A program made the translations under genes and the position numbers. From Euglena gracilis (taxonomy: Eukaryota), in the NCBI GenBank assembly GCA_039621445.1, contig CP154954.1, positions 18,648,642 to 18,712,641 on the forward strand: a stretch of 64,000 nt of DNA, written 5' to 3'. Numbering within the stretch: the stretch's first letter is position 1; the number at the start of each line of letters is the position of its first letter. The notes under the pieces are model-generated. The model was not told the DNA's origin, searched no databases, and worked only from the letters and a program-made list of their open reading frames with translations. Below are positions 18,649-62,453 of the stretch, piece after piece.

Positions 18649-19028
18649 CATAGTTGGCGTTTTTTTTTTGTTTTGTTTTTGGAAAAAACTTGCTTTTTTG
18701 AAAAGAAAAAAAATGACAAAAAAACATCAAAAAAAAACAAAAGGAAATTTTCATTGAAAAAAGCTCATTATGAAACACCCAAACCATACTTTGAATCCTA
18801 CTAAGTTCAAAAATTGCCAAAAATGGCCAAAACCATCCAAAAAATGCAAAAAAAATGCAACTTTATGGCTTTTTTCATGCCGGGAAGTTTTTCAAAACTT
18901 CCTAAAAAAGATTGAAAATATACATTCAAAAAAATTTCCGTGCAAAACCTTGTTGGCGTTTTTTTTCCTTCAAAATTGTTAAAATGAAAAAAAAAGTAGC
19001 GTCCAAAAAAAACAAGCTGCCAACTATG
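18649..19028. mobile_element. hAT-like MITE
   Basis: CATAGTTGGC...GCCAACTATG TIRs. 8-bp TSD TCCGGGAG/TCCAGGAG. Confidence 0.85.
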
Positions 19029-19445
19029 TCCAGGAGGTCAGGCAGGGGGTCGCTTATTCCTTCGGAGCTGCACCCTCCCAGAGGGATGGTTGCATTCCTG
19101 GGCTAGAACCTTTCCGTGACACTCGGTTCGGGGTAATTGGCAGGCCATGCCATTCAAGGCTCAATTCAAGGCACCCAGGCTGGTCAGGTCGAGTTAGTGA
19201 AGGCCCCATGGGCACCCGAACGCATGGTGCAGGGTTTGGCTCAGCCCCAGGGGAGCCTCACACCACACGACGCTCCTGACCGCTGCTCCTGCCGACCCTT
19301 CACTGTGGCTAGATGGAGATGGGCTGGTCGAGGCCAAGGCCGTTGCTGGCACCCATCCTCCTCCTGCGGTGACACCCTCGGGATTCGGGGGGGCTCACCA
19401 CTATTCATGGATCGCCTTTGTCCCGAGACCATGCTCACTCCAAGG

Positions 19446-19897
19446 CATAGCTGGCTTTTTTAAAAAAAAACGTTTTTGTTTGTTTTTTTATTTAAAAAAA
19501 ACGGGCAAAAAAAAACGGCAAAAAAAAGGGGAAAATGATGGTCCAAATTTTGCCTTTGATCGCAAGGGTGAACCAACCTTAGCTCAAAGGGCTTGAAAAC
19601 CAATACTTTTGGTTGTCATACTTTTGTTTTTTGTTTTTTTTTTGAAAAAAACATGCGTTTTTTTCAAAAAAAACGTGTTTTTTTTTAAACTTCGTTTTAA
19701 ACGAAGTGCCAGCTATGGTTGAAACATCCCAAATTTGGTGTCTTTCTCTAACCGAGGATGGGCAAAAAAAGCTAAAATTAAAGGCAAAATTTTTTTGCCC
19801 TGGACTCAATGCCGTTTTTTTTGTTTTTTTAAAAAACATTTTTTTTTAAAAAAAACGAGTTTTTTTTGACTTCGTTTTAAACGAAGTGCCAGCTATG
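19446..19897. mobile_element. hAT-like MITE
   Basis: CATAGCTGGC...GCCAGCTATG TIRs. 8-bp TSD CTCCAAGG/CCCCAAGG. Confidence 0.85.
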
Positions 19898-20368
19898 CCC
19901 CAAGGCGCCTCGACTGCTTCCACGGGGGGCTCACATTTGCCTGACTGTACATTGAGCCACCATGCGCAGGTGCCTCCACAACAACCTCCCGGCGTTTAGG
20001 TGACCAGCCGGGACCCGTTGATAGCGATCCCCGACACCGGTGCGCCACATTCCGATGTCCAGGCCACTCACCCCCACGGTATATCGAACGCTGCTTCAAG
20101 TGCACCACACTCCGAAGGTCGCCCGACCTGATGACCAACTAGCGAGTCCCACGGAACCAGGTTGATTACTGGTTGCTATCGGTTGCTGCCGTTCTAAAGG
20201 CCTCCCATCTTCCGCGAAGCACCCTGAGGACCCATGCGGTCCTGCCACTCGTTAGGGACTGGGTATCCTACGATCTCTGATCGCCAGATCCGCGACAGGC
20301 AATTAGGCATCAAAGATACCCTCCACTATCCCTCTAGTGCCTTTCACGAAGGAAGAACACTGAATACG

Positions 20369-22977
20369 ATGCCTGAAACTGGAAAGTCAAGTGACAGCGA
20401 GGAACTCTCAACAATATCCGAAATTTCGAGCGTCGCCAGTCTGACCATCGAGGAGATTGTGGAGAGAAAGCGACAAGAGCAGGCAGCCACGCAAAAGGAT
20501 GGCCAAACCAGGAGCCAGAAGCGTCGAGCAAGGCGGCTGAAGCAAGCGCTGGCACCAGCCCCCCTCCGAGTTCGATTACCCGGAATCAAGCAATCCCAGA
20601 AAAAGCCACATTTGACCAAGGTGTGCAAGCAAAAAGCCCAAAGGCAAGCCAAGCAGCACGACAACCAAGCTGTGGAGCAAAACCCTGGCGCTGGCAAGAA
20701 GAACCCGGAGTTTGGAAACCAAGGAAGCAAAGGAGACGTAAACGAACACCGCCCCCATCCCCAGCACATTCCCCATTACAATCGCCATCCCCGTTTTGTG
20801 CCCTCCCCCCCCCCTCCCCCCCCACATGTGGTGCCAATTGTCCCAATTACAGAGGCCCTGCGGGCCCTGCAAAGACAATTGGCACCACCCCTTCCCACCG
20901 AAACTTACATCAACACCAACCTACCACACACACTGCCATTCCACACCTTCTTTCCCCCTCCCCCCCCCGGCCCTCCCCACCCCTGTGGCCCAGTGGGCCC
21001 CTTCGGTGGGGATGTTGGCCGGGATGTCCCTCCCCCCCCCTGGACCACCACCTCCCAACCCCACCCCCACTATCCAAATTACAGCTGAATTATATGAACA
21101 ATTGAGGAATCATTTCCTCCCTAACCAGGCTAACCCCACCCCCCCCCTCCCAGGGCCTTCTGCACCCCCCTCCCCCATCTCAGTCGCCCCCCCCTCCCCC
21201 ACTGGCTTGGATCCCCTTTCCCTTTGTGATGAAGAAATGGAAGACCTGCGAAGTATTCTGCCGAAACTTCGGCCCCCCCCTGCCCAAACAACCTTTCTGT
21301 TGGAGTGGCTCCGCGGCCTCCCCCCCCACCCCCCACCCTGTGCAAAAGCCCTGTCTCCGCCAGTGATGGGACTGCAGTCTGCCAGATCAATGATCTACCT
21401 CCTCTGTGCCTGCCTTCTAGCCGGACTCCTCCCAAAAATGCTGGATGGGTGGGAGCGAAGGACCCCCGCCCCCACCCCGGCGGCATGCCAAAAAAGGGGC
21501 GAGCACCATGACCCCAATCCCTGCCACGACCACTATGACTTTCCCCCGGCTGCCACCCCTGGGAACTACGGCCCCACCCTCTGGAAGGTCACCTGGGGTC
21601 CGAACTGGGTCGTCCACTGCGGAGACATCCAACCAAACCCGGGTCCCCCCAGCCGGCACTTCGTCTTCCGCCCCCCCCCTCCTCTGGGGCATCCTGGACT
21701 TCTGGTCGCTCCCTCCACCGGACCTTGACCTCTTCGCCTCAGCTAGCAACGCACAAACCACCAACTTTTTCTCGGAAGCTTCCTCCGCCCTCAACAGGAC
21801 CTGGCGCCACCTGGGCTTCCTTTGGATCAACCCACCTTTCTACCTCTTGCCCCTGGTCACCAAAAAAGTCCTGCACGAACGACCGCACGCGCTGGTTCTG
21901 TTCCCTTTCAGCCAGGCTCAATGGTTCACCGACCTCACCACCGCCGCCACAAGGCTCATCACCATCCACACCACCCCCTGCTTCCTCTTCCCCGACGGCT
22001 CCCCTGCACCTCCGGCACCTTGGCCCGTGTTCATCGCCCTCATATCCGCCCCTAACATGCCTCAAACTTCGCCACACGGCACCCCCATCCTACTCTGCGG
22101 TGACGTTGAACAGAACCCCGGGCCCATCTCCTTCCATGAATTCCTTCAAAATGCCGCCACTCCTTTCATGACAGGGGTCAACCCCACAGACATCGCCCGC
22201 CACAAAACAAACCTTCTCCTCCGTTCTGCCTCCTGGGGTGAACATTGGTTCGCCTCCCTCTTCCCCGATCCCAGCCAACCCCCGGACCACGATGTCGCCC
22301 TCCAATACCTCTCGGCATACGAACTCTTCACAAGAGCCACCCTTGAACGTGGTCCTGAGGCGCTCCAGTGGACCTTCCAAGAGGACGAACTGGAGGCCCT
22401 GCGCCGGCAAGTCGCCGCCCTTTCCGCACCATCACAAAACCCACCTCCCCCAACCCTTGAAAGCCTCTCCGCCACACTCTCCCCAACCAACATCACTGCT
22501 TTCCGCTCCCTCCACCCCGGACCGACCTGGATGACCGACTTGTGCGACATCCTGGAGCGCTCCCTCTCGGGAATGACCGAGGACGACACCCTTCTCGCCG
22601 TTTGGCGCCTCCTCATCTCCACGTATTTTCGCTACCGCGCCACTTACACCTCACCGGCCGCACGACTCACCACAGATCCACACCAACCCCACATGCACCG
22701 CTCCTCCTCCTCCTCCTCCCAACAGCAAACCCATGCGCCCCCGTCCAGTCCAGCCCCTTTCTCTGCCTCCGACGCCTGCCTCATGGGAGCCTCCGCCCAA
22801 GAAAGGCGAACCCCACACGGCACATCAACTTTCCTGTTCCACCAAGGAACTGAGTATTACAAAACCCGGGAAGGAACGCTTTGGCCCACCTCCTCTCCGC
22901 CCCCAAAGGATTGCTTCAAATGCCCGGGCTCCAGGCACTGGCATTGGCAATGTCCCAAGCTTCAAACCCACAAATGA
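20369..22977 (+). CDS. ORF1 polyprotein: basic/Pro-rich N-terminus - 2A - DNA N6-adenine methyltransferase - 2A - Gag-like with CCHC knuckle (two apparent frameshifts in C runs)
   Basis: GDIQPNPGP at 21621-21647. DLDLFAS at 21721 and WINPPF at 21823-21840. GDVEQNPGP at 22099-22125. C-x2-C-x4-H-x4-C at 22912-22953. Joining the three ORFs needs shifts at poly-C tracts near 21030-21040 and 21671-21680 (inference). Confidence 0.8.
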
Positions 22978-24091
22978 CTCGCTGTGTCCCACCCCCCTAA
23001 CCCAACCCCCCCCCCAGCATACCCCTCCCCCCTCCCAAACTGCCCCCCTCCCCCCACCAATACCTCCTTGCACCATCTCCGCCCTCACCTCAGCCTCACT
23101 TAAGCTCAAAGACCACCTCGCACAGCCCGACCGCACCCCCCTGCCAGGAAACGCCCTCCTATGGCACTGGTCCACCTCCACCCTACGCACGTACTGCTCC
23201 CGTATCAATTCCCTCCTCTCCTTTTCACACACCTATCCTCCGGACACTGACCTCGTGGTCTTGGTCCCGCTCTACCTGGGGCACCTTGCCGCGGCCGGCC
23301 ACGCCTCCTCCTACAGTCGCGGTGTCCTCTCCGCCCTCCAAGCCCTCTCCACCCTTTCTTGGCTCGACCTCACCCTCCCACCAGCCTGGTGGAAGTACTC
23401 CTCCGCCGCCGACCGCATCCACGTCCCCTCCGACCGCTTGTGGTTCCCACCATCGGCTTTTTCCCAAATACGGCCGTCCACGCTGCAAGACGTCCGCACT
23501 GTCGGCCTCACCATTTTGGCGCTTTCCCTCGGCCTGCGCTACAGTGAAGCCGCCTCACTCTCCCGCTCTTCCCTCCTCTTCTCCTCCCCATCACCAACCA
23601 TACACTTCCGCGCCGCCAAGGTCCGCCCCCCACTCTCCCCGGACACCACCCGAACCCTCACCTCCTTCACCCTTTCTTGGCTCCTCTTCCTCTACGAAGT
23701 CGCCGAACCCACAGACTCACCCTTCTGCCCGCCGGCCACACTCCACCACCACTACAAACAGGTCTTCCAGCACACGCGTGCTGCTGGGTTCCCCTTCCAC
23801 TCTCTCCGCCGGGCCTGTGCCCGCATCATGTCCCAATCCGGAGTTCCCCTCGAAGCCATCATGGATTGGTGCAGGTGGAGGAACCCAAGACAAGCCCGGG
23901 AATACATTGGACCTGCACACAGCGAACCCCAACTTACTGTCCCATGGCTCTTTCCCCAACCTCCCCCCACAGTCGGAGCACCAACACCCTTCATCCCAAT
24001 CATCCCGGGCGACCTCTTCCCTCCCACCTTCCTCCCTATCCAAACCCCAACCACATCCAACAAACGACGGCGACCTTCCACCATCTCGTAA
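22733..24091 (+). CDS. Tyrosine recombinase
   Basis: Uninterrupted 452-codon ORF with LGLRYSEA (R), AAK (K), HSLRRACA (HxxR) and RWRN...EYI (W, Y). True start uncertain. Confidence 0.92.
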   Translation: MRPRPVQPLSLPPTPASWEPPPKKGEPHTAHQLSCSTKELSITKPGKERFGPPPLRPQRIASNARAPGTGIGNVPSFKPTNDSLCPTPLTQPPPQHTPPPSQTAPLPPPIPPCTISALTSASLKLKDHLAQPDRTPLPGNALLWHWSTSTLRTYCSRINSLLSFSHTYPPDTDLVVLVPLYLGHLAAAGHASSYSRGVLSALQALSTLSWLDLTLPPAWWKYSSAADRIHVPSDRLWFPPSAFSQIRPSTLQDVRTVGLTILALSLGLRYSEAASLSRSSLLFSSPSPTIHFRAAKVRPPLSPDTTRTLTSFTLSWLLFLYEVAEPTDSPFCPPATLHHHYKQVFQHTRAAGFPFHSLRRACARIMSQSGVPLEAIMDWCRWRNPRQAREYIGPAHSEPQLTVPWLFPQPPPTVGAPTPFIPIIPGDLFPPTFLPIQTPTTSNKRRRPSTIS

Positions 24092-24355
24092 TACACTGTG
24101 GGGCCTCGCTGGTCGACTCTCAAAACTCCCCTTACCCCACCCCGTTTCCCGACGATGCTTGTACCATCTCCTCCGCCTCCTCTTCCACGTCCTCACCGAC
24201 CTGCGCACGGATTCTCTCATACAACTGACAACTGGCCGCCTGCTCTCCCTCTCTCTTCGCCCTCCGCTCCATCAACTGGCTCCTCCTCCTCATACTAAAA
24301 TACTACAGTAACCCCAACCCGGCCCCCCCCCTCCAAGGAACTCGCGCTCCGCGGC

Positions 24356-25857
24356 TTGGGCCAACGCGGCTCATACGCCATCCCCCCACCTATCTGGGAT
24401 TCTGTTGTGCCCCCCACCCTCATCCGCACCCTCCTCCGACACCCGCCGCCGCCACCCTCCCTTCAACGACGCCCATCCCCACTCACCGTGATCCTCCTTC
24501 ACTCCCTGGCACGGGACGGTTTCCTCCTCCCCCTACCACCACCCTCCGGGGACTTCCACCCCTTCTCCAACCTTGCTTCCTTTATCCACCCCAAAAACAG
24601 CAGCAAAGTCAGCTTCATTGCCGACTTACGTTGGGCTAACACCTTTTCCGAGCCTCCCCCCTTCCACCTCCCATCCCTGTCCCATATCTCCGAAACCATC
24701 TCCAGGTTCCCCCCTGGCACTCTCTGGGCCACCACCATCGACTTAACCAACTTTTTCTGGAGCCTCGAACTCCCCCCCGCTGCCAAATACGCCTTCCGCA
24801 CCGCATCCTTCTACTTCCCTTGCCTCCCGTTTGGCTGGAACCTTTCCCCTGTACTTGCCCAACTCACACTCCAAGATCTTATTAACCGCGCTGTTTCCTC
24901 CCTCCCTCCCCCCCACGTTGCACCACGGCATGACGACTTCTCATCTTCACCTATTATGACACCCTATGCAGCCTTGTCACCAATACCATTACCTCCACCC
25001 TTCGATCATGCAACCTCCTCATCTCCCCCAAATCCTCGCTCCTACCCACACAAGCTATCACATGGCTGGGCAAGGTGTTCAACCTCTGCCACCGAACAAT
25101 CGGAAACACCGCCGCCACAGAGCAGAAAGCACTCGCCCTCTCACTTCTCTGCACGTTTATGCCCCTCCATCCCCAGGTCATCGACCGCCTCACCGGCTTT
25201 ATGTTGTGGTACCACCGCCCACACCGCGGAACAACACTGCTCCTTCGGGGGTGGTACCTCACAAAGTACACCCTTGGTCGTATAGACCACGCTTTCCCCA
25301 AACTCCGACGGGCCCTCTTTCACCTCCTCCTGCAAGGCCTTACGCCATGGCAGGCTGTCGACGCCATCCCCCCTTCCTTCTTCAACCCGCTGATCTTCGC
25401 CGACGCCGCCATCTCCGCCAGCGGCTGCCAAATCGGCCTTTACTGCCCAACCGTCGGCTGCCGCATCCAACGTATGCATTGCCCATCCATCTCCCAACAA
25501 CGTGCCGAGTTACTCGCCCTGGAACAGGCCGTCCACTTCGCCTATAACACTGGTCTCCACCCTTGCACCATTGTTGGTGACAATGTCTCCACCCTACACC
25601 TCCTCTCTCACTTTACCCCCTCCCTGTCAAACCAATCCCTGTGTAAGGACCTCCGCCGCTTGCTAAACTTCATTATCCGTACCAAACTCACTGCCCATCT
25701 CCTATGGTGCCCTTCCTCCATTCAACCAGCCGACCCAATCTCTCGATGGCACCTCTCCCCCCACCTATCACTCCCAAACCAATCAGTCGAAGACAGATTC
25801 GCCTCACTCTGCCAATCCTTCCACCGCTGCCGCCTCATCGGCATGCTCCACGGATGA
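24356..25857 (+). pseudogene. Reverse transcriptase-RNase H (frameshift near 24940)
   Basis: PK...FIADLRWAN, IDLTNFFW, LPFGWNLSP, HDDF, then in another frame LIFT...ISPKS...ITWLGK. RNase H: FADAA, QQRAELLAL, GDN, ADPISR. Confidence 0.9.
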
Positions 25858-26120
25858 CGGCGGGTGTGTTGTCCATTCCCATGTCTTCGCTTGCTTCGCG
25901 GATCCTACGATCTCTGATCGCCAGATCCGCGACAGGCAATTAGGCATCAAAGATACCCTCCACTATCCCTCTAGTGCCTTTCACGAAGGAAGAACACTCT
26001 CCACACCACCTCAGCTGACCACTGATGCTCCATCGTGTCCCCGTTGAGGTATTGTACGATAGCTGACCAGCTAAGAACGCTGCCGCCACCTTTGGGTGTG
26101 TTGTCCATTCCCATGTCTTC

Positions 26121-27609
26121 AGAATGGAGGGCAACAACACGGCGGGTAGCACAGCTTCACCCAGACCGTGCCCCGGGCCCAGGGAGATGTCTCTTTTGGC
26201 CCTCGCCACAAGGAGAAACTCCTCATGACTCCCTGTGCGGCCACAGGTCGCCGGTAGATACTATGGGTGTAAAGTACATAAAGGTTGTACGGAGTGCCGT
26301 GCCCGTCCTGCGGTCCATGGTTAGAGGAAAATGGGAAAGTCCCATCTTCAATATATACGGCGGCGGGGGGGGGGGAGTGTGTGCTTTGCCTGCCACTGTT
26401 GGCGTGTTTGTGTCATTGGCTGGTTGGCTGATTTGTGCCTGGGGTGGTTTCACAGCCGTCCGAGAGTGGCTGATTTGTGCCTGGGGTTGTTTCAGAGCCG
26501 TCCGAGAGTGGAGGTGAGAAAGCTGGCCTCATGGCCATTGCTTTGTGTGGGCCACCGAAGGTGGTAGAGGTGGTCGGTGCCCTGGATGAAGTCACACTCA
26601 AAAGTATGGGGAATGCGTACCACCGCTATTGCAATCAAGTAGTTGCTCAGGGCACTGTCCCCATGCCAGTTGTCTTGCCAACTCGCGCATCAAAGCCATT
26701 CCAAGTCCCTGCCATGCACTGGCCTCCACACCCCGCCTCTCCCAGCCGTTATGTTGGCTTGTTTGGAGGCGGATGCATGTGGAGACGAATCCTTGGCCTG
26801 CTTCACTCATGCCACCGTAGCAGTCCATCACCAGTGGGATAAATGTCCAGCCTCGTCGCTTGCAAGGGTCCCCATACTTGGCAATTTTGTCTTCTTCCTG
26901 TCGAGTGTGCCAATTGTCCACCTGAGCTGGAGGTGACCTGGAGGGTGCTAGTGGGTGTCTGACTGTGACATCAATGGCTGCGGGTCCATTTGCGTCAAAT
27001 CGAGTGATGAAAACATCGCCCGGTCGAGTTCCGTCCTCAGCTTTTTCTTCTCGACGTGCAGGAAAGCCAGCTCGCTGTGCCAGGTTCAGGACAAAGCTTT
27101 GCACTGCCCCGTGCCGCCGAACGAGGTTGTTACGGTGGCAGCAGACGAGGTGGTGGCCGGCTGTGTCAAGTGGGCTCATGCATCGTGGACATGCGGGAGA
27201 GTGGCTCTCTTCTGTTTTTACCACAGGAGCGCCAAGCGTCCATTGGAGGAGGGCAACAAATTCTTTCGTGGGAACAAGGGTTTTTGTGCCAGCAGAGGGG
27301 ACTGCACACGTCCAGGCCATGGCATGAGGCCTTGTTTGGCAGGAAAATCGGATGGCATCGGATCCGGACAGGGAGTTTTGCAGTTTCTTTTGGCGCAGCA
27401 TTGAGCAGACGTTCCCCCAGTGTTTCTGTGACACCATTTCTCGTGGTAGTTGGGTGGCACGGGTGGAGTCATCTGTTAAGGCCTGCAGGGGTTGACCTTC
27501 AACACCAACGATCTTCAGCAATGTCAGTGCGGAGTCAAAATCTGGTGGTTTCATACTGCGGATTACGAAGTCCGGAAGTCCCAACAACGTTTCAGCCCTT
27601 TGGAGGAAG
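26121..27609 (-). mobile_element. 5'-truncated RLE-type (CRE-like) non-LTR retrotransposon
   Basis: 12-bp TSD TCCCATGTCTTC at 26109-26120 and 27610-27621. The reading frame is open right up to the 5' junction. Confidence 0.9.
26598..27608 (-). CDS. C-terminal zinc knuckle plus restriction-like endonuclease domain of a non-LTR retrotransposon (partial)
   Basis: CPRC...HHLVCC, RRH, RPGDV, AIDVTV and EEDKIAKY motifs. Confidence 0.88.
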   Translation of the reverse strand, partial: FLQRAETLLGLPDFVIRSMKPPDFDSALTLLKIVGVEGQPLQALTDDSTRATQLPREMVSQKHWGNVCSMLRQKKLQNSLSGSDAIRFSCQTRPHAMAWTCAVPSAGTKTLVPTKEFVALLQWTLGAPVVKTEESHSPACPRCMSPLDTAGHHLVCCHRNNLVRRHGAVQSFVLNLAQRAGFPARREEKAEDGTRPGDVFITRFDANGPAAIDVTVRHPLAPSRSPPAQVDNWHTRQEEDKIAKYGDPCKRRGWTFIPLVMDCYGGMSEAGQGFVSTCIRLQTSQHNGWERRGVEASAWQGLGMALMRELARQLAWGQCPEQLLDCNSGGTHSPYF

Positions 27610-27842
27610 TCCCATGTCTTCGCTTGCTTCGCGGATCAGCCAAGCGCGGAAGATTAGGATTCAACATTTCGCCTTGAAGCCCGCGTTTCCAAGCTTTTTC
27701 TTTTTTTTTCTTTTTTTTTGAGATAATTTGGGCCAAGCTACCAATCGGGATGGTCCACATGAAATTTTGTGCCATCTTCACGGTTCATGGCAACACCACG
27801 ATTCCTCGTCCGCCTGTACAATTGTCGCAAGCGCTGATTGCC

Positions 27843-27854
27843 ATCCTTCCTCAG
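27843..27854 (+). promoter_or_regulatory. Candidate spliced-leader trans-splice (or 5'UTR intron) acceptor of the HADHA-like gene
   Basis: ATCCTTCCTCAG lies 16 nt upstream of ATG 27871. SL use is inferred from the lineage. Confidence 0.5.
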
Positions 27855-27870
27855 GATCGGACTGGAAGAC

Positions 27871-62453
<34,583 letters not shown>

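What the first reader, a model, noticed from the sequence alone, without database searches (positions are those of the whole stretch)
20369..22977. YR retrotransposon whose first polyprotein has a DNA adenine methyltransferase bracketed by two 2A-like peptides, upstream of Gag
Seen: GDIQPNPGP (21621-21647), then a Dam-like domain (DLDLFAS...WINPPF...QWF), then GDVEQNPGP (22099-22125) in frame with a Gag-like region ending in a CCHC knuckle. Established: D(V/I)ExNPGP motifs cause ribosomal stop-carry-on, and in DIRS1-like elements the methyltransferase domain normally follows RNase H at the end of pol. Inference: here the MTase has moved to ORF1 and would be released as a free protein at Gag-like stoichiometry. 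It might mark circular cDNA intermediates with 6mA or modulate host silencing. I do not know of this architecture being described, but I could not search the literature.
Basis: partly seen in the sequence, partly recalled or inferred. Interest (0 to 1): 0.9.

Follow-up and report, generated by a model that had tools for sequence, protein, structure and literature searches.

The report
Retrotransposon methyltransferase flanked by 2A peptides
A tyrosine-recombinase retrotransposon encodes its adenine-methyltransferase-like domain in the first gene, between two ribosome-skipping "2A" motifs and ahead of Gag, and many distant relatives share this layout, although this copy is broken.

Summary
GDIQPNPGP is at 21621-21647 and GDVEQNPGP at 22099-22125. 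A Dam-type domain above Pfam's cut-off lies between them, and a CCHC knuckle ends the ORF.

The first 2A is in a different frame from the Dam domain, with the break in a C-run at 21671-21681. A second break lies near 21040-21090.

The architecture is nevertheless real and conserved:
- A 49%-identical protein (P0001) carries 2A-Dam-2A-Gag in one frame.
- An 860-aa relative (P0011) carries the whole X-2A-Dam-2A-Gag in one ORF.
- Among 150 cluster representatives, 18 of 18 Dam-to-Gag junctions hold NPGP.
- NPGP occurs 79 times in those proteins against 0.7 expected.
- Every contig of three DNA runs that covers the C-run has one letter fewer there, which puts 2A-1 and Dam in one frame.

The Dam model matches N6-adenine methyltransferases (PCIF1 Z 10.7, EcoDam 9.2, T4 Dam 8.8). 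A YR gene and an RT/RNase H region follow, inside split direct repeats, and no methyltransferase lies in pol.

Ribosome skipping and methyltransferase activity are inferred, not shown. I found no paper describing 2A in YR retrotransposons. Verdict: a new variant of a known kind, of moderately high interest.

The parts
20265..20361 (+). Terminal repeat A1 (97 nt); the element's 5' end begins ATCCTACG
   Evidence: 100% identical to 25902-25998; sequence read
20369..21088 (+). ORF1 first segment (frame 2): N-terminal part of accessory protein X, from its ATG. It has an acidic/basic N-terminus and then a proline-rich tract.
   Evidence: Open frame. tblastn of the P0011 N-terminus hits it at E 7e-14. 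No Pfam family.
21040..21090 (+). First frame break of ORF1 (frame 2 to frame 0), in a C/proline-rich tract; exact place not resolved
   Evidence: Frames. The P0011 alignment in frame 2 ends near 21040. Coverage by other copies here is poor or ambiguous.
21045..21587 (+). ORF1 second segment (frame 0): C-terminal part of X, with a hydrophobic stretch before the first 2A
   Evidence: Open frame 20742-21728. No Pfam family. BLASTP to P0011 is not significant here.
21588..21647 (+). 2A-1, 20 residues ending GDIQPNPGP (frame 0); Q stands where the consensus has E
   Evidence: The same GDIQPNPGP is in P0001 and P0023. Related DI(E/H)xNPGP occurs at this site in other relatives.
21671..21681 (+). 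Second frame break: a C-run where this copy's frame changes from 0 to 1 between 2A-1 and the Dam domain
   Evidence: sequence. In one search table 4, every contig covering 21671 in runs X1, X16 and X19 has one letter fewer (depths 280.3/280.3, 9.14/9.14, 34/34).
21673..22065 (+). Dam-like N6-adenine methyltransferase domain (frame 1), with DLDLFAS and WINPPF
   Evidence: PF05869 33.1 bits against cut-off 28.1. Invariant D, F, W, W, NPP, P and W columns in 11 of 11 sequences. Model pLDDT 89.6. Best folds are PCIF1 Z 10.7, EcoDam Z 9.2 and T4 Dam Z 8.8.
22066..22125 (+). 2A-2, 20 residues ending LLCGDVEQNPGP, in frame with Dam and Gag
   Evidence: GD.E.NPGP is invariant in 11 of 11 aligned sequences. 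NPGP lies at the Dam-Gag junction in 18 of 18 representatives.
22123..22977 (+). Gag-like protein (starts at the Pro of NPGP) with a C-terminal zinc knuckle at 22912-22953, then the stop codon
   Evidence: The family alignment keeps the C..C...HW.W.C motif. Model pLDDT 87.7 but no capsid-fold match.
22577..24091 (+). Tyrosine recombinase ORF (stop to stop; first ATG at 22733). It overlaps the end of Gag in another frame. The catalytic domain is about 23486-23911, with LGLRYSE, HSLRR and REY.
   Evidence: PF00589 32 bits against cut-off 27.1, E 1.3e-7; translation
24299..25285 (+). Reverse transcriptase part of pol, damaged in this copy; no YxDD box is recognisable
   Evidence: RVT_1 24.8 bits, below the 29.6 cut-off, E 2.1e-5. 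BLASTP to the RT of P0150 gives E 1.2e-6. Other copies differ by indels at 24252, 24323 and 24443, and depth drops in 24823-25023.
24934..25857 (+). RNase H part of pol (another frame); the frame ends four bases before B1 with no methyltransferase after it
   Evidence: RVT_3 15.6 bits, below the 21.6 cut-off, E 0.015. DAA, AELLAL and GDN motifs are read.
25862..25901 (+). Repeat B1, directly ahead of A2
   Evidence: Matches 26094-26120 and 27610-27637; sequence
25902..25998 (+). Repeat A2
   Evidence: 100% identical to A1
26094..26120 (+). Repeat B2, first part, cut by a nested insertion
   Evidence: 100% identical to 25862-25888
27610..27637 (+). Repeat B2, second part. Its first 12 nt repeat the last 12 nt of the first part, as a target-site duplication of the nested insertion. 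The element's 3' end is ...GCGGATC.
   Evidence: 100% identical to 25877-25904; sequence

Best explanation
Window 20265-27637 holds one defective copy of a DIRS-order tyrosine-recombinase retrotransposon. A later 1.5-kb insertion interrupts its 3' repeat.

In its family, ORF1 is a polyprotein: X, 2A, a Dam-like methyltransferase of about 150 aa, 2A, then a Gag-like protein with a zinc knuckle. A YR gene and an RT/RNase H pol that lacks the usual C-terminal methyltransferase follow.

The most likely mechanism has these steps:
1. Ribosomes translating ORF1 skip the Gly-Pro bond at each D(V/I)xxNPG|P (StopGo).
2. X, the methyltransferase domain and Gag therefore leave the ribosome as three separate proteins from one message.
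3. No protease is needed, and none was detected in this element.
4. The methyltransferase is thus made free, in amounts tied to Gag rather than to pol.

Shown here: the architecture, its conservation, the N6-methyltransferase fold and motifs, and purifying selection on Dam-2A-Gag. Inferred: skipping at the two sites, and catalytic activity and substrate of the released domain.

My odds are about 0.95 that the layout is a real family trait, about 0.8 that at least the second 2A skips, and about 0.4 that the domain makes 6mA in DNA.
For: 1. Motifs and domain are at the stated places and beyond chance.
2. P0001 is 49% identical over 84% of the query (E 7.4e-120). It has GDIQPNPGP, Dam, GDVEQNPGP and Gag with a knuckle in one frame.
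3. P0011 (860 aa) has X-2A-Dam-2A-Gag in one ORF. Its N-terminus matches window 20369 onward at E 7e-14.
4. A profile search gave 653 hits at E<=1e-3, 75 at <=1e-10 and 14 at <=1e-30. In the best 150:
   - NPGP occurs 79 times against 0.70 expected.
   - It is at 18 of 18 Dam-to-Gag junctions.
   - It is just upstream of 26 of 29 Gag starts.
   - It is within 40 aa upstream of 24 of 85 Dam starts and within 70 aa downstream of 27 of 87 Dam ends.
   - 14 representatives have both, from my hand intersection of the lists.
5. All contigs of three DNA runs that cover 21671 have one letter fewer than the window. That places 2A-1 and Dam in one frame.
6. Of the 15 listed differences between this copy and others in 21673-22974, 12 are synonymous and 11 are at third positions (binomial p 0.0018).
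7. The Dam model has pLDDT 89.6. Its best matches are N6-adenine methyltransferases. D..FA and W.NPPF are invariant.
8. A canonical RT-RNase H-Dam pol exists among distant hits (P0150), so the ORF1 position is a relocation.
9. No peptidase family was reported for any of the window ORFs scanned against Pfam at E<=1.
Against: - This copy cannot make the polyprotein. It has two frame breaks in ORF1 and damage in pol.
- 2A-1 has Q where the consensus has E, and its activity is unknown.
- A 2026 preprint reports that most retrotransposon-associated 2A-like peptides it tested lowered protein abundance rather than skipped cleanly (70% of the ORF1p and 59% of the ORF2p occurrences, passages).
- Other eukaryotic DAM domains gave no 6mA rise in dam- E. 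coli.
- The best fold match, PCIF1, is an RNA enzyme.
- The first 2A is missing at the aligned site in 2 of 10 aligned relatives, P0003 and P0013.
- Only 40 of 213 differences between copies were visible for the selection count.
- The Gag label rests on position and the knuckle only.
Confidence: 0.72

Rival explanations
1. The NPGP motifs are conserved, but they mainly throttle translation or lower the abundance of downstream products. They would then set the level of Dam and Gag rather than separate the proteins cleanly. Much of the product would stay fused or be lost.
For: A 2026 preprint found that 70% of ORF1p-associated and 59% of ORF2p-associated 2A-like peptides it tested fell in a 'reduction' class (passages). 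2A-1 departs from the consensus (Q for E).
Against: 2A-2 matches the class A core LLxCGDVExNPGP closely. The motif always sits exactly at a domain boundary (18 of 18). Some relatives have up to five sites between short modules (P0035), which fits separation of the products.
Confidence: 0.13
2. The released Dam-like domain is not a DNA 6mA enzyme. It may act on RNA or on the RNA:DNA hybrid or single-stranded cDNA of the element, or it may serve only as a nucleic-acid-binding module. This rivals the function step only, not the architecture.
For: The best solved-structure match is the RNA cap m6Am enzyme PCIF1 (Z 10.7, Foldseek E 2.4e-3). Other eukaryotic DAM domains were inactive on E. coli DNA. 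The domain is minimal, about 150 aa.
Against: EcoDam (Z 9.2) and T4 Dam (Z 8.8) follow closely. The Pfam family is a DNA methyltransferase family. The NPPF catalytic motif and an invariant D..FA motif are kept at under 50% identity.
Confidence: 0.4
3. The arrangement is an accident of this locus: a decayed or chimeric copy in which unrelated pieces happen to lie side by side.
For: The copy has frame breaks, and another element is nested in its 3' repeat.
Against: The same order occurs in one frame in many proteins from other sources at 26-49% identity. Other copies in three runs have 2A-1 and Dam in one frame.
Confidence: 0.02

Closest known systems
DIRS1-like and PAT-like retrotransposons (DIRS order)
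   Same: - Gag-like ORF1, a tyrosine recombinase and RT/RNase H.
- A Dam-like methyltransferase of unknown function.
- Gene order Gag, YR, pol as in DIRS1, and split direct repeats as in PAT (PMC3266345, passages).
- ATC lies at both ends and at the B1-A2 junction. This fits the 3-bp junction model of integration without target duplication.
   Different: - The methyltransferase is not the C-terminal domain of pol. It lies in ORF1.
- It is bracketed by 2A motifs.
- An extra N-terminal protein X precedes it.
- No inverted repeats were found (0 pairs), so the termini are not of DIRS1 type.
2A-like sequences of APE-type non-LTR retrotransposons (L1Tc, Ingi, CR1, L2 and others)
   Same: D(V/I)ExNPGP motifs lie in frame near the N-terminus of retrotransposon proteins and are shown there to recode translation (PMC3708506, search listing and start of abstract; passages).
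   Different: The element order differs (YR-encoding, not LINE). There are two or more sites per ORF, and they isolate an enzyme domain upstream of Gag.
Retrotransposons carrying DNA methyltransferases: DAM-LTR, EpiLTR, SymbioDIRS-Dnmt3, SymbioLINE-Dnmt
   Same: Mobile elements that encode their own DNA-modifying enzyme. The Dam domain here belongs to the same broad eukaryotic DAM family, since P0116 (Ty3-type) and P0074 (Dam plus C5 methylase) are hits of the same profile (bioRxiv 10.64898/2026.05.21.726589; PMC5890265).
   Different: In the passages I read, those enzymes are fused inside pol, or are ORF1 itself. No 2A or Gag-linked position is mentioned: 0 occurrences of NPGP, 2A-like, skipping, ORF1 or capsid in the preprint's main text. 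Its figures and supplements were not seen.
Multi-2A polyproteins of RNA viruses (class A 2A such as T2A)
   Same: The same core motif, and the same logic of several proteins from one ORF without a protease (passages).
   Different: This is a cellular retrotransposon, not an RNA virus, and the released unit is a nucleic-acid methyltransferase.

Membership tests
DIRS order (YR retrotransposons) | Encodes a tyrosine recombinase instead of a DDE integrase | tested here: met
   PF00589 32 bits against cut-off 27.1. R, HxxR and Y motifs are read. No rve hit in the element's ORFs.
DIRS order (YR retrotransposons) | Reverse transcriptase and RNase H | tested here: met
   RVT_1 E 2.1e-5 but 24.8 bits, below the 29.6 cut-off. 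RVT_3 is weak. BLASTP to the RT of an RT-RNase H-Dam protein (P0150) gives E 1.2e-6. The domain is damaged in this copy.
DIRS1-like superfamily | Inverted terminal repeats with an internal complementary region | tested here: not met
   0 inverted repeat pairs in 19000-28000
DIRS1-like and PAT-like superfamilies | Methyltransferase domain as the last domain of pol (RT-RH-MT) | tested here: not met
   The pol frame ends at 25857, before B1, with no Dam hit. Dam lies in ORF1.
PAT-like superfamily | Split direct repeats A1 ... B1 A2 B2 | tested here: met
   A1 and A2 are 97 nt and 100% identical. B1 lies next to A2. B2 is present but sits 95 nt after A2 and is cut by a nested insertion.
Ngaro / VIPER | No methyltransferase domain in the element | tested here: not met
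   A Dam domain is present in ORF1
Pfam PF05869 Dam (N6-adenine methyltransferase) | Profile score above the curated cut-off and the (D/N)PP(Y/F/W) catalytic motif | tested here: met
   33.1 bits against 28.1. WINPPF is present, and NPP is invariant in 11 of 11 sequences.
Pfam PF05869 Dam (N6-adenine methyltransferase) | Rossmann-type SAM methyltransferase fold like known N6-adenine enzymes | tested here: met
   Model pLDDT 89.6, pTM 0.83. 6irx Z 10.7 (rmsd 3.4, 135 aligned), 2ore Z 9.2 and 1q0s Z 8.8.
Pfam PF05869 Dam (N6-adenine methyltransferase) | Methyl transfer to adenine N6 in DNA | not testable with these tools
   Other eukaryotic DAM domains were negative in dam- E. coli.
Class A 2A / StopGo peptides | C-terminal D(V/I)ExNPG|P with a hydrophobic upstream part | tested here: met
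   2A-2 is PILLCGDVEQNPGP. 2A-1 is WVVHCGDIQPNPGP, with Q in place of E.
Class A 2A / StopGo peptides | In frame with coding sequence on both sides | tested here: inconclusive
   2A-2 is in frame in the window. 2A-1 is not in frame with Dam in this copy. It is in frame in P0001, P0002 and P0011 and in the contigs of three runs.
Class A 2A / StopGo peptides | Peptide-bond skipping during translation | not testable with these tools
   No reporter or proteomic data were available.
Retroelement Gag | CCHC zinc knuckle | tested here: met
   CFKCPGSRHWHWQC at 22912-22953. C..C...HW.W.C is kept in relatives.
Retroelement Gag | Capsid-like fold | tested here: inconclusive
   Model pLDDT 87.7, pTM 0.47. 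Best VIA Z 6.0, on helical hairpins only. Best Foldseek E 0.7.

The most novel reading that the evidence does not exclude
A large, old clade of retroelements uses StopGo recoding in place of a protease to build modular ORF1 polyproteins. It includes YR elements like this one and relatives where Dam-knuckle-2A precedes an RT. Its constant module is a free Dam-like methyltransferase made in step with Gag. That would be the first recoding-based polyprotein processing in tyrosine-recombinase retrotransposons. It would also mean that the long-unexplained DIRS methyltransferase works in trans, for instance by marking the element's cDNA or RNA inside the particle, rather than as part of the polymerase.
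Probability: 0.5. Interest if true: 0.75.

Novelty: new variant of a known kind. Interest (0 to 1): 0.62.

Why it matters
- The role of the methyltransferase domain of DIRS-type elements has been called unknown since their description (PMC3266345). A lineage that detaches it from pol and makes it as a separate protein with Gag gives a natural, testable handle on what it does and on what substrate.
- It extends 2A/StopGo recoding to another order of retrotransposons. The papers I could search place it mainly in non-LTR elements, with single reports in LTR-type and other reverse-transcribing elements.
- It suggests how an element in which no protease was detected can still process a polyprotein.
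- The family offers dozens of natural 2A variants, including DIQP and DIHP forms, for the 2A field.
- For annotation, ORF1 of these elements should be read as three or more products.

Tried and rejected
- **Whole-genome copy census.** No genome is held for this window. Only one copy lies in the window.
- **Public contig collections.** Two scans of metagenome contigs and one of viral contigs found no relative. I therefore could not see the YR or pol context of the homologous proteins.
- **Protein atlas.** There was no usable hit for P0001. The YR query returned only generic integrase clusters.
- **PDB by sequence.** The Dam segment gave nothing significant (best E 1.7).
- **Expression.** No RNA holder was listed. 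In RNA run X24, 121 reads were laid. A share of 0.98 of them run on unlike sequence, and they pile on C-rich low-complexity tracts. This gives no evidence either way.
- **Gag fold.** No capsid-like match was found.
- **Host clue.** A recalled dinoflagellate spliced-leader motif has 0 matches in the window. I make no claim about the host.
- **X protein, second half.** BLASTP against P0011 was not significant. Only the N-terminal part is demonstrably shared.
- **Possible third, decayed 2A.** AVEQNPGAG at about 20669-20695 has no counterpart in P0011, so I dropped it.
- **First frame break.** Minority insertions at 20993, 21031 and 21138 occur in one run. Depth is near zero in the other two. I cannot say how other copies read there.
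- **Earlier notes of this scan.** Three look-ups returned nothing on this genome or sequence. The two notes on Naegleria PAT-like elements did not bear on this finding.
- **Cluster look-up.** For 10 relatives it gave no informative names or accessions: one member is labelled 'hypothetical protein' and the rest carry no name.
Full report
**What is in the sequence**

On the + strand, three long open frames overlap head to tail between 20369 and 22977.
- 20369-21088 is read in frame 2.
- 20742-21728 is read in frame 0.
- 21421-22977 is read in frame 1.

GDIQPNPGP lies at 21621-21647 in the second frame. GDVEQNPGP lies at 22099-22125 in the third. These are the only two D[VI]xxNPGP matches in six-frame translation of the whole window. 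None occurred in 100 block shuffles.

Between them the third frame scores 33.1 bits on Pfam PF05869 Dam, above the 28.1 cut-off, with DLDLFAS and WINPPF. The frame ends in a CX2CX4HX4C knuckle (22912-22953).

In this copy, however, the first 2A is not in frame with the Dam domain. The change of frame falls in a C-run at 21671-21681. A second break lies near 21040-21090.

**The element around it**

Downstream come these parts.
- A tyrosine recombinase ORF at 22577-24091. PF00589 scores 32 bits against a cut-off of 27.1.
- A damaged reverse transcriptase at 24299-25285. RVT_1 gives E 2.1e-5 but falls below the cut-off. BLASTP to the RT of an RT-RNase H-Dam protein, P0150, gives E 1.2e-6.
- An RNase H part at 24934-25857.

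That frame stops four bases before the 3' repeats, so pol carries no methyltransferase.

The repeats are direct, and no inverted pair was found.
- A1 (20265-20361) and A2 (25902-25998) are 97 nt long and identical.
- B1 (25862-25901) abuts A2.
- B2 is split into 26094-26120 and 27610-27637. The two pieces share a 12-nt overlap, the signature of a later insertion of about 1.5 kb.
- ATC lies at the start of A1, at the end of B2 and across the B1-A2 junction. This fits the published model in which these elements integrate through a 3-bp junction sequence without target duplication (PMC3266345, passages).

**Is the ORF1 layout real or an accident of a dead copy?**

A word-indexed search found one relative, P0001 (506 aa, 49% identity, E 7.4e-120). 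It carries GDIQPNPGP, the Dam domain, GDVEQNPGP and the knuckle-bearing protein in one frame.

A profile of the two sequences, searched against 1.84 billion cluster representatives, gave 653 hits at E<=1e-3, 75 at <=1e-10 and 14 at <=1e-30. I examined the best 150.
- NPGP occurs 79 times in 50,843 residues against 0.70 expected from composition. Almost every occurrence has a D(V/I)E-type prefix.
- NPGP sits at 18 of 18 junctions where a complete Dam C-terminus is followed by a complete Gag N-terminus.
- It sits just upstream of 26 of 29 Gag starts that have upstream sequence. The misses are P0016, P0040 and P0050.
- It lies within 40 residues upstream of 24 of 85 Dam starts.
- It lies within 70 residues downstream of 27 of 87 Dam ends.
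- Fourteen representatives have both flanks, from my hand intersection of the two lists.

Most of the Dam-bearing hits without 2A are short, unclassified fragments. The few I scanned include a canonical RT-RNase H-Dam pol (P0150), a Ty3-type element (P0116) and a Dam plus C5-methylase protein (P0074).

In an 11-sequence alignment at 26-43% identity to its first row, the second 2A (GD.E.NPGP) and the Dam columns D, F, A, W, W, N-P-P, P and W are invariant. The first 2A is present at the aligned site in 8 of 10 relatives. P0003 and P0013 lack it there.

P0011 (860 aa) carries the whole X-2A-Dam-2A-Gag in one ORF. Its N-terminus matches the window from the ATG at 20369 (tblastn E 7e-14).

**Other copies in sequencing runs**

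Nineteen of the 24 listed runs hold half or more of the element's sampled words (a twentieth holds 0.38), and those 20 rows come from 15 studies. I laid three DNA runs, coded as organisms A, B and C, and one RNA run.

At 21671, every contig that covers the place has one letter fewer than the window. The depths with the difference over total depth are 280.3/280.3, 9.14/9.14 and 34/34. That puts 2A-1 and Dam in one frame in those copies. I cannot tell whether the window's extra C is a private mutation or a homopolymer error of its assembly.

The contigs also differ from the window by indels at 24252, 24323 and 24443 in all three runs. Depth falls across 24823-25023, so pol of this copy is damaged as well.

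The tool printed 40 of 213 single-letter differences, and I classified those.
- In 21673-22974 (Dam-2A-Gag) there are 15. Twelve are synonymous and 11 are at third codon positions (binomial p 0.0018).
- In the X region there are 13, and 10 change the residue.

So Dam-2A-Gag has been under purifying selection among copies, while X evolves fast. The count rests on the visible subset only.

**The methyltransferase**

An AlphaFold model of window residues 21673-22098, built with 39 relatives, has pLDDT 89.6 and pTM 0.83.
- Foldseek ranks the cap adenosine N6-methyltransferase PCIF1 first (E 2.4e-3, TM 0.61-0.64). All the other top rows are SAM methyltransferases.
- An independent all-against-representatives alignment gives PCIF1 Z 10.7, E. 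coli Dam Z 9.2, T4 Dam Z 8.8 and Mcbe1 Z 8.4. Generic rRNA methyltransferases follow at Z 7-8.

Fold and motifs therefore fit an N6-adenine methyltransferase. The substrate is open, because the top match acts on RNA. A 2026 preprint saw no rise in 6mA when it expressed other eukaryotic DAM domains in dam- E. coli. Its authors suggest misfolding or a need for a hybrid substrate (bioRxiv 10.64898/2026.05.21.726589, section 9 read in full).

**The Gag label**

The model of the C-terminal product is confident locally (pLDDT 87.7, pTM 0.47). It matches no capsid protein. The best VIA Z is 6.0, on helical hairpins, and the best Foldseek E is 0.7. Gag-like therefore rests on position, the zinc knuckle and family conservation.

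**Relation of the 2A-flanked domains to the rest**

A quick maximum-likelihood tree was built from 93 Dam domains: 92 domains from the 150 representatives plus the window. I kept only domains that cover profile positions from 12 or lower to 120 or higher. The tree uses 135 columns, the careful search did not finish, and many forks are unresolved.
- The 2A-associated label needs 9 changes, against a shuffled mean of 26.1. None of 500 shuffles was as low.
- One group of 51 rows (support 90, below the 95 mark) holds 50 rows without 2A and one with.
- A well-supported group of 16 (support 99) holds a second 2A-rich lineage. It includes proteins where Dam, a short knuckle piece and a 2A precede an RVT_1 domain (P0054 and P0059).

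This suggests a few origins of the 2A-flanked state and movement of the module between element types. It is suggestive only.

**How it most likely works**

Shown: the conserved order X, 2A, Dam, 2A, Gag; selection on it; and the fold. No peptidase family was reported for the window ORFs I scanned against Pfam.

Inferred from the established behaviour of D(V/I)ExNPGP peptides: the ribosome releases the nascent chain after the Gly and continues from the Pro. One message then yields X, a free 150-aa methyltransferase and Gag. 2A-2 is close to the class A core. Most class A candidates tested in a 2025 survey were active (14 of 17; PMC12338488, passages). 2A-1 carries Q, or H in some relatives, where E is usual, and it may be weaker.

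What the free enzyme does remains open.

**Literature**

- No held paper contains both 'NPGP' and 'tyrosine recombinase', or both '2A-like' and 'DIRS'.
- The DAM-retrotransposon preprint has 0 occurrences of NPGP, 2A-like, skipping, self-cleaving, ORF1 or capsid in its main text.
- Four 2A surveys or studies have 0 occurrences of methyltransferase. The three searched for recombinase have 0, and the two searched for DIRS have 0 (passages only).
- One survey mentions dinoflagellate 2A peptides. Another mentions a 2A on a Ty3-like RT.
The long peptide lists there may include members of this family without comment.

**Verdict**

Its functional steps are still inference. It is a new variant of known kinds: DIRS-order elements with a Dam-like domain, and retrotransposon 2A peptides.

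Noticed in passing
window 26121-27621: A nested insertion of about 1.5 kb splits repeat B2. It is flanked by a 12-nt duplication (TCCCATGTCTTC). It belongs to a far more abundant repeat: summed contig depth for 26029-26200 is 235,042 in run X1, against about 700 over the YR element. It holds a minus-strand open frame at 26598-27635 (345 aa stop to stop) with no Pfam match better than E 0.21.
   Followed up: partly
proteins P0035, P0023, P0020, P0055, P0067 (relatives): Some relatives carry three to five 2A sites in one ORF. These cut it into short modules of 39-220 residues besides Dam, and most modules belong to no known family. P0023 has a weak HNH hit (E 0.0063).
   Followed up: partly
proteins P0054, P0059, P0063, P0113: A second layout exists: Dam at the N-terminus, then only the C-terminal knuckle piece of Gag, then a 2A. 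In P0054 and P0059 an RVT_1 reverse transcriptase follows in the same ORF.
   Followed up: partly
window 20369-21620: The N-terminal protein X matches no family. It is shared with P0011 only at its N-terminus. It changes fast between copies: 10 of the 13 listed differences alter the residue. It has a hydrophobic stretch just ahead of the first 2A, as do P0011 and P0007.
   Followed up: partly
window 24823-25023: The RT catalytic region of this copy looks rearranged. No YxDD box appears in either frame. Depth of other copies drops to 162 from about 1000 in run X1. A contig of run X19 that joins at 24959 carries other letters upstream.
   Followed up: no
window 26425-26508: Two tandem 42-nt units, 95% alike, lie inside the nested insertion.
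   Followed up: no
window 20265, 25899-25904, 27635-27637: The trinucleotide ATC is shared by the element's first bases, its last bases and the internal B1-A2 junction. This is as expected if a circular junction recombines with an ATC in the target.
   Followed up: partly
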